Assembly (NCBI RefSeq): GCF_009914755.1
Contig: NC_060936.1
Source: the human T2T-CHM13v2.0 reference genome, Homo sapiens
Length of the DNA: 64,000 nucleotides
Reading direction: 5' to 3' (one strand)
Both the position numbers and the translations under genes were made by a program. Positions 50,540 to 56,276 of this stretch are shown piece by piece. A model generated the notes under the pieces. It did not search any database and was not told where the DNA came from. It saw only the letters and a program-made list of their open reading frames with translations. Positions within the stretch are counted from its first letter, which is position 1, and the number at the start of each line of letters is the position of its first letter.

Positions 50540-50910
50540 GGCGGGGCCTGGGTGGGGCTGGCCGGGGCCTGTGGGGAGGGGGCAGGGCACGTGTTGGGTG
50601 TCTGGGCGGGGCCAGGCGGGGTCTTGGGGGGACAGGGGCGGAGCCTGTGGGGCGGGGGCGGGGCCTGTGGGGGCCTGGGCGTGGCGTCTAGGCAGGGCCA
50701 GGCGGGGTCTTGGCGGGATGGGGGCGGGGCCTATGGGGAGGGGCCAGGGCATGTGCGGGGTGTCTGTCCGGGGCCAGGCGGGGTCTTGGGGGGCCAGGGG
50801 CGGGGCCTGTGGGGCGGGGCGGGCCTGGCTTGCTGGGCCTGTGCCGGGTGTCCGGGAGGGGCCAGACGGGGTCTCGGAGGGGCGGGGCCGGGGCCTGTGG
50901 GGCGGGGCTC
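50540..50910 (+). repeat. Degenerate G-rich tandem repeat (about 4 copies, 75-90 bp period) upstream of the TSS
   Basis: GGCCAGGCGGGGTCTTGG-like core near 50609, 50696, 50771 and 50860, each followed by a GGGGCGGGGCCTGTGGGG-like motif. Confidence 0.8.
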
Positions 50911-51060
50911 CTCTGGTCCCGCCCCGGCCACATCAGAAACCGCCGTTTGCTGGGCAGCCAATGAGGGCGTGGCGCGCGCCGCTTTCCGCCGTTACTGGGC
51001 GTATGGCGTACAGACACGAGGCCGGCGCCTGGGAGGCGGTGTTCATCCGCCCGGGAAAAG
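50880..51060 (+). promoter_or_regulatory. TATA-less core promoter: GC boxes, CCAAT box (AGCCAATGA, CCAAT at 50958-50962), MYB site (CCGTTA at 50989-50994), E2F-like CCGGGAAAA near 51051
   Basis: Motifs read directly from sequence, just upstream of or within exon 1. Confidence 0.65.
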
Positions 51061-51250
51061 AGCGCCTGTTGCTCGCTGCCCGCGTGTCCCTGGCTCTCTC
51101 GGGAACCCAGCGCCGAAGGCGAGGTGGGCGCGGGCCGAAGGAGGTCCTGGGAGGTCGGCGGCGCGGAGGGATCTCCGCGGGAGCCGTTGGGGCTGTTGGC
51201 CTCGGGCTGAGGTGCAAGGACCAGGACTAGGGCGAGGGCAGCGGTCCAAG
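50990..51250 (+). other. PIWIL1: PIWIL1 non-coding exon 1 (5' UTR)
   Basis: Ends ...GCAGCGGTCCAAG|gtgcgg; the join to AAATAGAAAACAATG agrees with my recollection of the PIWIL1 mRNA leader. 5' end uncertain. Confidence 0.7.
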
Positions 51251-51349
51251 GTGCGGGGCCAGGCTGAGGTGCTAGGTGTGCGGGGGCCGGGATGCGGGGG
51301 CGGCGGCTGGGGGTCCGGGATGTGGAGGTGAGGCTCGAGGTGCGGGGAC

Positions 51350-52360
51350 CGGGTTGCGGGGTCGAGGTCCCAGGTGCGGGGGATGCAGGAGCCAGATGCG
51401 GTGGCGAGGTCGCAGGTGCGGGAGATGCAGGAGCCGGGTGCGGGGTCGAGGTCCCAGGTGCGGGGGATGCAGGAGCCGGGTGCGGGGTCGAGGTCCCAGG
51501 TGCGGGGGATGCAGGAGCCAGATGCGGTGGCGAGGTCCCAGGTGCGGGAGATGCAGGAGCCGGGTGCGGGGTCGAGGTCCCAGGTGCGGGAGATGCAGGA
51601 GCCGGGTGCGGGGGCGAGGTCCCAGGTGCGGGAGATGCAGGAGCCGGGTGCGGGGGCGAGGTCCCAGGTGTGGGAGATGCAGGAGCCGGGTGCGGGGGCG
51701 AGGTCCCAGGTGTGGGAGATGCAGGAGCCGGGTGCGGGGGCGAGGTCCCAGGTGTGGGAGATGCAGGAGCCGGGTGCGGGGGCGAGGTCCCAGGTGCGGG
51801 GGATGCAGGAGCCGGGTGCGGGGGCGAGGTCCCAGGTGCGGGGGATGCAGGAGCCGGGTGCGGGGGCGAGGTCCCAGGTGCGGGAGATGCAGGAGCCGGG
51901 TGCGGGGTCGAGGTCCCAGGTGCGGGGGATGCAGGAGCCAGATGCGGTGGCGAGGTCCCAGGTGCGGGAGATGCAGGAGCCGGGTGCGGGGTCGAGGTCC
52001 CAGGTGCGGGAGATGCAGGAGCCGGGTGCGGGGTCGAGGTCCCAGGTGCGGGAGATGCAGGAGCCGGGTGCGGGGGCGAGGTCCCAGGTGTGGGAGATGC
52101 AGGAGCCGGGTGCGGGGGCGAGGTCCCAGGTGTGGGAGATGCAGGAGCCGGGTGCGGGGGCGAGGTCCCAGGTGTGGGAGATGCAGGAGCCGGGTGCGGG
52201 GGCGAGGTCCCAGGTGTGGGAGATGCAGGAGCCGGGTGCGGGGGCGAGGTCCCAGGTGTGGGAGATGCAGGAGCCGGGTGCGGGGGCGAGGTCCCAGGTG
52301 CGGGGGATGCAGGAGCCGGGTGCGGGGGCGAGGTCCCAGGTTTGGGAGATGCAGGAGCCT
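51350..52360 (+). repeat. 42-bp minisatellite (VNTR), 24 copies, in PIWIL1 intron 1
   Basis: Consensus GGTGCGGGG(G/T)CGAGGTCCCAGGTG(C/T)GGG(A/G)GATGCAGGAGCCG; GATGCAGGAGCC recurs every 42 bp from 51382 to 52348; degenerate copies in both flanks. Confidence 0.98.
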
Positions 52361-53920
52361 GGGGTGCAGGGGCCGGGGTGCGGGGGCGATGTATCAGGTG
52401 TGGGGGGTGCGGGGCCGGGGGGAAGCGCTGAGGCCCGACTTGCCGGGGCTGTAGGGCCGGGGTGCGGGGGTGCAGGGGCCGGGGTGCGGGGGCGAGGTCC
52501 CAGGTGCAGGGGCCGGGGTGAGAGGCTGAGGCCTGAGTTGCCGGGGGTGCGGGGGCGGAGGTCTCCGCATTGGCGGCCGTGCGTGAGACTGCGGGGACCT
52601 GAGAGCTCTGCAGGAGGGCCTTCGGGACCTCCCGCACTACCCACGCGGCCGCGGGGCGCGATCTCTGCGGAGGGCGAGGGCCCCTTCCCGCGTCCGCCGC
52701 CGCTGCGCTGCGCCCCCGGAAGCCTTGGGAGCCGGACGTTGGGAAGAGGACGGAACTCCGGAGGACCCCAAGTGAGGCGGCGACCGCGACGGCCGGGCTC
52801 TGCGAGGCCCGGGGGTCCTCGCGGGTGCTGGCGGCCCGGCCCTTGGCACCTGTGGAGGGAAAGGGGCGGCGGGGCGGTGGCGTCCTGGGATGGATGCTCT
52901 CGCCGTCTTCAGCCCCGGCGGCCTCCAGGGCAAAGCCGGCTGCACCCCTGCGCAGCCTGTTCTCTGAGCGCTTTTCTTTTCGTTTTTAAGTTGTGGCCAG
53001 AGAGACCCCGCTCGCATAGAATGTACCGCTCAACGGTTTTTAGGCGTGTGGCGCGGTGGTGGTTCCCACGTGCACGGCGTGGTCCTGAGCTCAGCGCCGG
53101 AGGGACGTTAGGTGGAAGCGTCTTTGGCAGAGCTGGTAGCGAATCGGAGAGGTGATTTCCAGCGAGTGTGGTTATTGGAAGCACACACTTGCTTTCTGAC
53201 TTTAAGAATTCAATATCCAGACTGAGGTGGTTTTGAAACTGGAAGGAGATAAAGCTGAAAACCAGAGTTGTGCTGGGAAACCTGGACGTAGAGCGCTGAG
53301 CCCCCCAGGTATTTAGTGACCAGCACAGCGCGCCGCCGTGGGTTTCAGGCCCTGGAGATGATGAGAATCAGCTGGAGGGCTGCTTCCAGTCGGCTTCTAA
53401 CTCGGGAGGGCTGAGAGCCGCTCCCCACCCCGTAATTTCTGTTCCCAGCCAGTCCAGATGCTGCCCGTCAGGGACCAGGCTTTGAGAACTGACGTGCTGC
53501 TTTAGGAATATTTCCTGCTGGAGATGAGAGTTCAGCTTGTCACTGTTTTTTAATCACTGTTTCACACCGTTGTTTGTAAGGTGTCAAGCGACGGACTGGG
53601 TGCAAAGGCATCAATTGTGATTCGCAGGCTAGTTGGAGAAGCTATGGAGTGCAGAGATGTGGGGAGGGAGAAAACAGGTTACCATGTAGTAGGGTGACCG
53701 TGGTCACGCCGGGGAAACGGCTTTCGGAGAAGGGAGCAAGGGATGGCCTGCGAGCTGGTCCTTAAGCGGTTCACTGGATTCTTGTGGTTTCAGAGGAGGG
53801 TGAGGCTTTGTTAGCAGAGGGTGTGCCACGGTGTAGGGTGAGTCACGGAATTGATAGTGATAGGAAGCAAGTTGTGTTTGCTGGAGTCTCAAGCGGATGC
53901 TTTCAGATTGATTTGTAGAT

Positions 53921-54313: not shown

Positions 54314-55760
54314 CCTGTAGATTATCAGTAAGAGACTTTCATGCGCCAGTATGCCCCGTGTGTAAGCCGAGCATGCATACGTAATCATTGTCATGATGCG
54401 CACATTATAAAATAAATACAAAGCAGTTTAAAATGAGATTTAAAATTAGTTGTAATATGCTGGCACCTCAGCGGATTATCCTGTGTAAACTCCTTTGGAA
54501 ATTGCTGATTTAGAGTCATATTGTAAGGGGTCTTATACAATGAATATTTGCTTTAATCCTGTAAAATACAATAGGAAGTCGGAGGTTTTTAAAATTGAAA
54601 AATGGCATTAGATTTATCTTTCTGTGAAGATCATGAAGCCAAGAATTTTAGAAGCTGTTAAAACTCAGAGGATGAAAAAGATAATGTGATTTAAGGCAGA
54701 GTGATGGTAGATGATGTCATCGCCTGCCCCTATGTAGAACCTTGGATGGTTTCTCATGTGTTGAGTATCCAAGCTGTCTGCAGGACCCTGAGCAGTCTGC
54801 TCCCTGCCCACATGAAATCCTCCACTCCCCTTGCCCCTTCTCTTTCCAGTCCCACTGGACGTCTTTTGGTTCTGCATCCAGTTCAAGCACTTATGTGTGG
54901 GTTGTTACCGTTTGTGTGGAAGACTGGTACCACCCTACCTTGCAATTCCTAATTCTCTGTTTCAGCTTAAATCTTGTTAGAGGTGGATAACAAGGTGCAA
55001 CAAGTGTTAGAGAATTCTACCAAAGATATTTTGGATTTATCCTAAGATCTAACTACTTCATATGAAAAAGATAACACTACTAGCATCCTGCCTTCGTGTA
55101 GTATTCTAAGAAGCTGACTTCAAGTTGCTTTTAAAGCTGTGTGTAAATAACGTGTATTAACACGTGTAGTTATAATTTTACCTGCCCTTTCCATTAGGGC
55201 TAATGTTTGTTGACTGCTCACTAGAGGCCAGTGTGAGTTCTCATTTGATCTTCACCATTGACTTGTGCAGTAGGTTATTCCAACCATTCGACAAAGAGTC
55301 ACACGCTATGTTGTTTTCTCATGTTGTCTAAAATGTGAAGGAGTTGGGTTCAGGCAGTTGAGCTCTGAGGCCTCTACCCTTAATAGCCTGATGACATTGT
55401 GTACCACCACGATGAGGGTGAGAGATTGTTACAGCTGAGCCCAAAGCTGATCCCAGCTCACAGGAAGCACTTAGTACCATCATGATGTTGAAGAAATGGA
55501 GAGAACGGTCCTGGCAGATGTAGGAGAAATAAAGGAGTGGTTTTGAAATCAATGACTCCATTCTTTTTATTTAGATATAACGTATATGGTGATGCCACTC
55601 ACCAAGAATGAAATTATGGGACATGAGGTAGAAGAGATACTAGTTTGGGTATGTTCAGTGTAAGCCACACATGGAACTCTGGGAAGATCCAGGATGACTC
55701 ATTATGTATGCAGAAGGATTTTCTAAGGGGCCTGGCGGGACACTTGCCACAAGTGCCTGT

Positions 55761-55805: not shown

Positions 55806-56198
55806 TGGGAGTATGTGTTAAGTGTGTGTACATGTGTATCTCCAAATGGGAAAGAAAGAACCAGCCACCAGCATCCTAATTCTTTCAGCACTTTCTCCTC
55901 CTAAGTCTGTTTATAATAAATAATCCAAATGAAAAACTAAGTCTTATATTAAAATAGGTTTTCCCCTTTGGCCCTACTGCAGTGCCCAGTGCAAGGTAAG
56001 CAACTGAGTTTGTTGAATGTAGGAATGTTACATTAAAAAAAACTGTCATTAAAGATTAGAAGGATACATAATAATTGCCTGGGGAGCTTACTTTTGAAAC
56101 TCAAAGAAGTTTAAAGTAACATTGTAGAAATTATCAAATGCGATTGCCTCCATTGAGTATTGTCTTCAAGATTGTTTCCTCTCCAGAAATAGAAAACA

Positions 56199-56276
56199 AT
56201 GACTGGGAGAGCCCGAGCCAGAGCCAGAGGAAGGGCCCGCGGTCAGGAGACAGCGCAGCTGGTGGGCTCCACTGCC
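56199..56276 (+). CDS. PIWIL1: PIWIL1 exon 2 coding part, aa 1-26 (exon starts 56187); RA/RG arginine-methylation motif
   Basis: Acceptor ctccag|; ATG at 56199 with A at -3; MTGRARARARGRARGQETAQLVGSTA; donor GCC|gtgagt. Confidence 0.97.

What the first reader, a model, noticed from the sequence alone, without database searches (positions are those of the whole stretch)
51245..52510. Intron-1 minisatellite is an array of copies of the exon-1 splice donor
Seen: the inferred exon-1 donor is AAG|GTGCGG (51250/51251). 23 of the 24 units contain CAG|GTGCGG or CAG|GTGTGG (first GT at 51374), and most also contain CGG|GTGCGG, all within G-runs. Established: MAG|GT is the donor consensus and intronic G-runs (hnRNP H/F) enhance weak donors. 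Inference: the array offers more than 20 competing or decoy U1 sites, so copy number and variant mix could tune exon-1 splicing, 5' UTR length or intron retention of the piRNA effector. The repeat may have arisen by amplifying donor-like sequence.
Basis: partly seen in the sequence, partly recalled or inferred. Interest (0 to 1): 0.8.

Follow-up and report, generated by a model that had tools for sequence, protein, structure and literature searches.

The report
Splice-donor-repeating minisatellite in PIWIL1 intron 1
A 42-base repeat just inside the first intron of the human PIWIL1 gene copies the gene's first splice-donor signal about two dozen times, an arrangement already known from a handful of other human genes, where the extra copies mostly stay unused.

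Summary
A 42-bp x 24.3 array lies at 51349-52373. 23 of 24 units carry CAG|GTGCGG or CAG|GTGTGG, and 20 of 24 carry CGG|GTGCGG. The exon-1 donor is AAG|GTGCGG.

The end of exon 1 plus its donor is a decayed copy of the unit: 22 of 25 aligned bases match, and 0 of 41,632 control 27-mers score as well.

By two rough scores the array sites are at least as good as the real donor.

This is a known kind of structure. The F7 IVS7, IFI6, CBS, LMNB2 and PDGF minisatellites also reiterate a donor. [quoted passage not shown]

Donor-like arrays are also common:
- 4 of 17 neighbouring minisatellites have one.
- At least 18 other loci on chromosomes 1-5 repeat this same 9-mer.

No RefSeq transcript uses an array donor. 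The donor 9-mer varies as much as the rest of the unit.

The same units also give 14 EGR-type sites, 85 CpGs and a GC skew of 0.45. The proposed tuning of splicing by copy number is untested and unlikely.

Verdict: new member of a known kind, of modest interest.

The parts
50991..51250 (+). PIWIL1 exon 1 (5' UTR) of NM_004764.5. Its last ~20 nt are homologous to the repeat unit.
   Evidence: Hub gene table. Alignment of 51231-51290 to the unit consensus. 27-mer test.
51248..51256 (+). Authentic exon-1 donor AAG|GTGCGG. The cut lies between 51250 and 51251.
   Evidence: Rough PWM score 7.72 and U1 duplex -5.7 kcal/mol.
51251..51348 (+). Decayed 5' flank of the repeat zone, with 14- and 27-bp sub-periods. 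It holds the annotated alternative donor TAG|GTGTGC (exon end 51275). It also holds the unannotated sites GAG|GTGAGG (last exon base 51327) and GAG|GTGCGG (51339).
   Evidence: z 6.2 against shuffles for 51245-51348; 51250-51390 matches units at 70% identity, E 2.6e-7.
51349..52373 (+). Homogeneous 42-bp minisatellite of 24.3 copies. It carries 23 CAG|GTG(C/T)GG and 20 CGG|GTGCGG donor-like sites. It shows a higher-order periodicity of about 10 units.
   Evidence: self-identity peaks at 98.3% at a shift of 10 units.
52374..52565 (+). Decayed 3' flank of the repeat zone: 14-, 22- and 28-bp G-rich sub-repeats with the same GGGTGCGGGGGCGAGGTC core.
   Evidence: z 13.3 for 52374-52540. One further core copy lies at about 52544-52562.
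56187..56276 (+). Exon 2, the acceptor for intron 1. The start codon is at 56199.
   Evidence: Hub gene table. ATG position checked.

Best explanation
This is a boundary minisatellite. A G-rich tandem-repeat zone (about 51231-52565) has its outermost decayed copy across the PIWIL1 exon-1/intron-1 junction. Its young core is 24 near-identical 42-bp units starting 99 nt into the intron. Because unit and junction share ancestry, the donor core AGGTGCGGG recurs once per unit, with a weaker CGG|GTGCGG as well.

The most likely behaviour is the one shown for F7 IVS7. The repeated sites are competent but normally silent pseudo-donors. The spliceosome uses the cap-proximal, most upstream donors (51250, and 51275 in one RefSeq model). 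The array sites serve at most as cryptic fallback sites.

Shown here: the array, the motif counts, the homology to the junction, and the comparable rough donor scores. Inferred: the silence of the array sites and the reason for it.
For: - Array anatomy and motif counts.
- Homology of the exon-1 end plus donor to the unit. Score 34 against shuffles of 17.9 +/- 3.6. 22 of 25 matches, with 0 of 41,632 sampled 27-mers elsewhere (0 of 741 G-rich ones) reaching the score. A BLAST-type hit of 51250-51390 to units, E 2.6e-7.
- Exon-1 body and the upstream G-rich repeat do not resemble the unit (z -0.8 and -0.4).
- Array sites score 7.81 and 8.32 on the rough PWM, with U1 duplex -7.2 and -7.1 kcal/mol. 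The authentic donor scores 7.72 and -5.7.
- The hub table lists no exon end inside 51349-52373. It does list alternative donors at 51123 and 51275, near the authentic one.
- Precedent, PMC1557585. The F7 37-bp VNTR spans the exon 7 boundary. Its pseudo-sites are functional but only the most upstream is used. IFI6 and CBS use only the authentic site plus two pseudo-sites (stated to be the most proximal for 6-16). LMNB2 and PDGF use only the authentic site.
- A stronger consensus site at 51327 (PWM 10.15, -10.2 kcal/mol) is also unannotated. This fits position outweighing strength.
- No constraint signal on the donor 9-mer: 2 of 10 variable columns against 2.1 expected.
Against: - No RNA evidence was available, so silence of the array sites rests on annotation only. 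Junction reads in a 42-bp repeat are easily lost by aligners.
- The donor scores use a weight matrix recalled from memory and a simple duplex energy, not MaxEntScan or SpliceAI.
- Unlike F7, the authentic donor is not in the first homogeneous unit. It sits in a diverged relic 124 nt upstream of the first array site.
- Exon 1 is a first exon, so the F7 results, obtained on an internal exon, may not transfer.
- The F7 discussion itself cites an earlier duplicated-splice-site study that gave the opposite result to upstream preference.
Confidence: 0.6

Rival explanations
1. The array is a functional set of more than 20 competing or decoy U1 sites, helped by G-runs bound by hnRNP H/F. Its copy number and variant mix tune exon-1 donor use, 5' UTR length or intron-1 retention of PIWIL1.
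For: - Array sites score as well as or better than the real donor.
- Three G-runs per unit.
- Decoy splice sites that promote intron retention are a documented mechanism (Parra 2018, PMC6097662, abstract read).
- If used, the sites would give 5' UTRs of 395-1319 nt with 3-28 upstream ATGs, against 272 nt and 1. Use would therefore have consequences.
- RefSeq lists several alternative donors around exon 1 (hub table).
Against: - No annotated exon ends in the array (hub table).
- In F7, identical pseudo-sites do not compete, even when strengthened to a consensus value of 91 (PMC1557585).
- No depletion or enrichment of variation in the donor 9-mer.
- The same 9-mer recurs in tandem at 18 or more unrelated loci.
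- 4 of 17 nearby minisatellites carry donor-like arrays, so the motif needs no functional explanation.
- PIWIL1 is absent from the spl-TR tables I could search. Those tables may not cover a 1-kb VNTR.
Confidence: 0.12
2. The array acts at the DNA or chromatin level as part of the PIWIL1 CpG island. It would be a G-rich, GC-skewed, R-loop-prone and CpG-dense block with repeated transcription-factor motifs. Its length would influence methylation or transcription rather than splicing.
For: - GC 0.74 and GC skew 0.45 across the array, on the non-template strand just downstream of the start site.
- 85 CpGs, observed/expected 0.77.
- 14 perfect GCGGGGGCG sites in the array, the EGR/WT1 consensus as I recall it. 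The window has 19 in all, against 0.06 expected.
- 24 of the 25 CAGGTG E-boxes in the finding's span lie in the array.
- 11 long-loop G4 motifs.
- The commonest variant, GTGCGG to GTGTGG, is a CpG-to-TpG change.
- CpGs up to 200 nt upstream of the start site are reported as variably methylated in blood. That result was exploratory and not significant (PMC13705218, passages read).
Against: - No canonical G4 (loops of 7 or fewer) in the array, and mean G4Hunter score only 0.93.
- Motif matches in a G-rich repeat are as cheap as the donor matches.
- No binding, R-loop or methylation data for the array itself were available.
- No PRDM9 13-mer in the array.
Confidence: 0.15
3. The array is a promoter-proximal U1 landing pad. 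U1 bound to the pseudo-donors is not used for splicing. Instead it supports elongation and suppresses premature cleavage and polyadenylation in intron 1.
For: - 23 good and 20 weaker U1-complementary sites lie within 1.4 kb of the start site, all on the sense strand and none on the antisense strand.
- Intron 1 holds AATAAA at 54411, 55528 and 55915, and ATTAAA at 55948, 56032 and 56048, all downstream of the array.
- U1 suppression of premature polyadenylation, typically in first introns, is established (review PMC3826338, passages read).
Against: - The authentic donor and other single sites may suffice.
- There is nothing to show that U1 occupies the array.
- The same base-rate argument applies as for the decoy model.
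Confidence: 0.08

Closest known systems
F7 IVS7 37-bp VNTR (Borensztajn et al. 2006, PMC1557585)
   Same: A minisatellite whose copy spans an exon/intron junction, so the donor is reiterated down the intron. G-rich donor of the GTG type (UGG/gugggu). The extra copies are not used in normal transcripts.
   Different: - F7 has 5-9 units, PIWIL1 has 24.
- In F7 the first unit of the homogeneous array holds the junction, and the pseudo-sites are strictly identical to the real one.
- In PIWIL1 the junction copy is a diverged relic 124 nt upstream of the first array site, and it differs at -3 (A instead of C).
- F7 exon 7 is an internal coding exon. PIWIL1 exon 1 is a non-coding first exon.
- The behaviour of the PIWIL1 sites is untested.
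IFI6 (6-16) intron 2 and CBS IVS13 minisatellites (Turri 1995 and Yang 2000, as summarised in PMC1557585)
   Same: Many reiterated donors: 25 pseudo-sites in 6-16, and 15-20 repeats in CBS. Use is limited to the authentic site and two pseudo-sites (stated to be the most proximal for 6-16). This parallels the RefSeq donors at 51250 and 51275.
   Different: In those genes the alternative donors change coding sequence. In PIWIL1 they would change only the 5' UTR. I did not read the original papers (Turri 1995 is not held).
Decoy exons or decoy splice sites that cause intron retention (Parra et al. 2018, PMC6097662)
   Same: Unproductive splice-site-like elements inside an intron, proposed to engage the splicing machinery.
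   Different: Decoy exons are conserved cassettes with both an acceptor and a donor, and they bind U2AF. The PIWIL1 units have a poor pyrimidine tract before CAG (GGCGAGGTCCCAG). No retention evidence exists for them.
Ordinary G-rich subtelomeric minisatellites
   Same: G-rich 10-100 bp units, high GC skew, higher-order variant blocks. Many carry the same CAGGTGYGG 9-mer in tandem (the chr13 19-mer array).
   Different: This one is homologous to, and lies next to, a donor that is actually used. It sits in the transcribed part of a promoter CpG island.

Membership tests
Boundary minisatellite that reiterates a splice donor (F7 / IFI6 / CBS type) | Head-to-tail array of 10-100 bp units in an intron | tested here: met
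   Period 42, 24.3 copies, 95% matches.
Boundary minisatellite that reiterates a splice donor (F7 / IFI6 / CBS type) | One repeat copy spans the exon/intron junction | tested here: met
   Met in decayed form. 51232-51257 matches the unit at 22 of 25 bases with one gap. 0 of 41,632 control 27-mers reach that score. Also.
Boundary minisatellite that reiterates a splice donor (F7 / IFI6 / CBS type) | Repeated sites have the same sequence as the authentic donor | tested here: inconclusive
   Positions -2 to +7 (AGGTGCGGG) are identical in 15 of 24 units. Position -3 is C instead of A. Eight units have T at +4, and one has TT at +3 and +4. Near-identical, not strictly identical as in F7.
Boundary minisatellite that reiterates a splice donor (F7 / IFI6 / CBS type) | Pseudo-sites silent, or only the most proximal ones used | tested here: inconclusive
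   Annotation only. No exon end of the 9 RefSeq transcripts lies in 51349-52373. Donors at 51250 and 51275 are listed (hub table). No RNA reads were examined.
Boundary minisatellite that reiterates a splice donor (F7 / IFI6 / CBS type) | Copy number polymorphic in the population (VNTR) | not testable with these tools
   Only one assembly is held. PIWIL1 is absent from the supplement of Eslami Rasekh 2021 that I could search. As I recall, that method is limited to short arrays.
Decoy splice sites that drive intron retention | Retention of the host intron, dependent on the decoy sites | not testable with these tools
   No expression data. The searches found nothing on PIWIL1 intron 1 retention. 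The intron hits in PMC4059699 concern introns 15 and 16.
G-quadruplex or R-loop-forming CpG-island element | Positive GC skew on the non-template strand downstream of the start site | tested here: met
   GC skew 0.43-0.47 from 51200 to 52599.
G-quadruplex or R-loop-forming CpG-island element | Canonical G4 motifs (four G3+ runs, loops of 7 or fewer) | tested here: not met
   0 in the array. 11 if loops up to 15 are allowed. Mean G4Hunter score 0.93.

The most novel reading that the evidence does not exclude
The 24-unit array is a heritable dosage element for the piRNA effector. U1 and hnRNP H/F load onto the pseudo-donors right behind the start site. A fraction of transcripts splice from array donors or retain intron 1. 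That would yield G-rich 5' UTRs of 395-1319 nt with 3-28 upstream ATGs, which should translate poorly. VNTR length and the CGG/TGG variant mix would then set PIWIL1 output in testis and in tumours that reactivate the gene.
Probability: 0.1. Interest if true: 0.65.

Novelty: new member of a known kind. Interest (0 to 1): 0.3.

Why it matters
If the pseudo-donors are silent, PIWIL1 intron 1 is one more example of a boundary minisatellite, and a large one with 24 copies. It would be a natural test bed for how a first exon picks its donor when many equivalent sites follow.

If they are used or bound, VNTR length would become a candidate modifier of PIWIL1 dosage, which is relevant to male fertility and to PIWIL1 reactivation in cancer.

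The practical point is that short-read pipelines will mis-handle junctions and genotypes in this 1-kb repeat. Absence from catalogues is therefore weak evidence.

Tried and rejected
- RNA secondary structure hiding or exposing the donors. Folds of the exon-1 junction and of three-unit stretches are no more stable than shuffles (z 0.73, 0.52 and -0.23). Rejected as an explanation.
- Recombination-hotspot motif. No PRDM9 13-mer in the array: 6 in the window, all elsewhere.
- Canonical G4. None in the array.
- Recursive-splicing or acceptor reading of CCCAG|GT. The tract before CAG is purine-rich (listing). Not pursued.
- Dispersed repeat family. The array is unique in the assembly, apart from a weak hit (72% identity, E 4.9e-7) to a 19-bp minisatellite on chr13.
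- MaxEntScan or measured 5' splice-site activity tables. Wong 2018 is not held. I used a recalled weight matrix and a U1 duplex energy instead.
- Turri 1995 is not held.
- A larger base-rate sample of minisatellites.
- Literature on a PIWIL1 intron-1 repeat. Five searches found nothing relevant:
  - PIWIL1 + VNTR: 16 papers.
  - PIWIL1 + tandem repeat + intron 1: 0 papers.
  - PIWIL1 + CpG island + first intron: 7 papers.
  - PIWIL1 + minisatellite: 2 papers.
  - PIWIL1 + intron 1: 27 papers, 15 listed.
- Supplements. PIWIL1 is absent from the Hamanaka 2023 tables (10 files searched, file 1 and one large docx unreadable) and from Eslami Rasekh 2021 (1 file).

Full report
**What is there.** The window is human chr12, and the region is the 5' end of PIWIL1. 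Tandem Repeats Finder gives a single clean array at 51349-52373: period 42, 24.3 copies, 95% matches, no indels.

Laid out in register, the 24 units read GCCGGGTGCGGGGGCGAGGTCCCAGGTGCGGGAGATGCAGGA with a few recurrent variants:
- 15 units carry CAGGTGCGG.
- 8 units carry CAGGTGTGG.
- 1 unit carries CAGGTTTGG.
- 20 units also carry CGGGTGCGG.
- 3 units carry CAGATGCGG in place of CGGGTGCGG.

The exon-1 donor is CCAAG|GTGCGGGG, cut between 51250 and 51251. The first array GT is at 51374.

**Finer anatomy.**
- The unit variants follow a pattern that repeats after about ten units. Self-identity of the array peaks at 98.3% at a shift of 10 units, against 94-97% at the other shifts tested. The array therefore grew partly by duplication of a block of about 420 bp.
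- The homogeneous core is flanked by decayed relatives. The 5' flank 51245-51348 aligns to the unit consensus at z 6.2, and the 3' flank 52374-52540 at z 13.3, both against mononucleotide shuffles.
- The exon-1 body (z -0.8) and the separate G-rich repeat upstream of the promoter (50560-50908, z -0.4) do not resemble the unit.
- The assembly holds no other copy of the array. The only outside hit is a weak one (72% identity, E 4.9e-7) to a 19-bp minisatellite on chr13.

**Is the exon-1 donor part of the repeat?** Yes.
- The last ~20 nt of exon 1 plus the first 7 nt of the intron align to the unit segment GCGGGGGC-GAGGTCCCAGGTGCGGG, with 22 of 25 matches and one gap.
- I sampled 41,632 27-mers, every third position on both strands, outside 51150-52650. 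None reached that score, including 0 of 741 G-rich ones.
- A BLAST-type search with four units also picked up 51250-51390 at 70% identity, E 2.6e-7.
Which came first cannot be decided without orthologues, and none are held here.

**How good are the sites?** MaxEntScan and SpliceAI are not available. I used two rough measures:
- A log-odds matrix with donor frequencies recalled from memory.
- The ViennaRNA duplex energy against the recalled 11-nt 5' end of U1.

Scores:

| Site | PWM score | U1 duplex (kcal/mol) |
|---|---|---|
| Authentic donor, 51250 | 7.72 | -5.7 |
| CAGGTGCGG (array, x15) | 7.81 | -7.2 |
| CAGGTGTGG (array, x8) | 8.32 | -7.1 |
| CGGGTGCGG (array, x20) | 5.6 | -6.5 |
| Other eight NM_004764.5 donors in the window | 4.3 to 11.0 | not compared |
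| Unannotated GAG\|GTGAGG, 51327 | 10.15 | -10.2 |

The main array sites are thus plausible donors by sequence. The site at 51327 lies between the real donor and the array, beats all of them, and is still not annotated. This suggests that position matters more than strength here.

**Is an array of donor-like sites remarkable?** Less than it looks.
- A random 42-mer of the same composition holds a site at least as good as the exon-1 donor in 1754 of 20,000 shuffles, and in 1212 of 20,000 Markov draws.
- I took all minisatellites of period 10-100 with at least 5 copies in the window plus the next 200 kb. Of the 17 other than this one, 4 carry such a site in at least 75% of their units on one strand.
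- Two of those four lie inside the span the hub table gives for RIMBP2, on its sense strand.
- Genome-wide, three CAGGTGYGG at a pitch of 17-47 bp match 183 + 229 times, against 59 + 105 for the reversed control pattern. The tool states these counts are lower bounds. The first 100 listed rows alone cover 18 distinct loci on chromosomes 1-5.
- G-rich minisatellites very often contain this 9-mer.

**Any sign that the sites are kept by selection?** No. Ten of the 42 unit columns vary among the 24 units. Two of them fall in the donor 9-mer, against 2.1 expected. In the core units 3-23 the figures are 1 of 6 against 1.3 expected. Concerted evolution limits what this test can show.

**What is known.**
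- Borensztajn et al. 2006 (PMC1557585; abstract, introduction passages, discussion and CV methods read) describe exactly this class. These are minisatellites whose first unit spans an exon/intron boundary, so that the donor is reiterated.
- In F7 IVS7 (37 bp, 5-9 units) the pseudo-sites are functional, but only the most upstream is used. This held even when downstream sites were strengthened to a consensus value of 91.
- Their introduction lists the 6-16 gene (25 pseudo-sites, two proximal ones used), CBS IVS13 (two used), LMNB2 and PDGF (only the authentic site used).
- PIWIL1 fits this pattern. RefSeq lists donors at 51250 and, in another model, at 51275, inside the decayed 5' flank. It lists none in the array (hub table).
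- My five searches found no paper on a PIWIL1 intron-1 repeat.
- PIWIL1 is absent from the searchable supplement tables of two tandem-repeat catalogues. That absence is weak evidence for a 1-kb array.

**Consequences if the sites were used.** The start codon is in exon 2, so only the 5' UTR would change. It would go from 272 nt with one upstream ATG to 395-1319 nt with 3-28 upstream ATGs, at 71-73% GC. Such mRNAs should translate poorly. This is inference.

**Other readings of the same sequence.** The units equally provide:
- 14 perfect GCGGGGGCG sites, the EGR/WT1 consensus as I recall it.
- 24 CAGGTG E-boxes.
- 85 CpGs, observed/expected 0.77.
- GC skew of 0.45 on the non-template strand, right after the start site.
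- 11 long-loop G4 motifs, but no canonical ones.

A chromatin or R-loop role for the array, or a role as a U1 platform protecting intron 1, is no worse supported than the decoy-donor model. The first AATAAA in intron 1 is at 54411, and the U1 review PMC3826338 was read in passages. RNA folding adds nothing.

**Verdict.**
- The evolutionary link between donor and repeat is supported.
- The functional claim is untested, and precedent argues against it.
- This is a new member of a known kind, of modest interest.
- The decisive data are long-read testis cDNA and VNTR-length association, neither of which is available here.

Noticed in passing
window 51325-51333: The unannotated site GAG|GTGAGG (last exon base 51327) scores higher than every annotated exon-1 donor (rough PWM 10.15, U1 duplex -10.2 kcal/mol). 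It lies between the real donor and the array.
   Followed up: partly
window 50958-50994: A CCAAT box at 50958-50962, and CCGTTA at 50989-50994 (reverse complement TAACGG, a MYB-type core as I recall it), sit at the annotated start site 50991. This fits recalled reports that NF-Y and A-MYB drive Piwil1 in mouse. Read only.
   Followed up: no
window 50560-50908: A second, unrelated G-rich tandem repeat (periods 76-88 and 162) lies just upstream of the promoter. It has 10 canonical G4 motifs on the + strand and does not resemble the intron-1 unit.
   Followed up: partly
window 51608-52330: 14 perfect GCGGGGGCG 9-mers, one per unit in units 7-13 and 18-24. The window has 19 in all, against 0.06 expected.
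   Followed up: partly
window 51349-52373: The consensus unit has no stop codon in any of the three + strand frames. Each unit has an ATG in the frame reading PGAGARSQVREMQE (my reading of the unit listing). This is a composition effect, not evidence of coding.
   Followed up: no
window 55993-56001: A strong unannotated donor-like site AAG|GTAAGC (rough PWM 11.07) lies 192 nt upstream of exon 2.
   Followed up: no
L009 2855-3261 (G000 chr13:111963854-111964260): A 19-bp x 22 minisatellite whose minus strand carries CAGGTGTGG in 17 units, resembling part of the PIWIL1 unit. The gene context is unknown.
   Followed up: partly
L018 9331-9570 and L023 3197-3584 (chr12, within the RIMBP2 span): Two minisatellites carry donor-like 9-mers on the minus strand, which is the RIMBP2 sense strand: CAGGTACGG x5 and TAGGTGAGG x6.
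   Followed up: no
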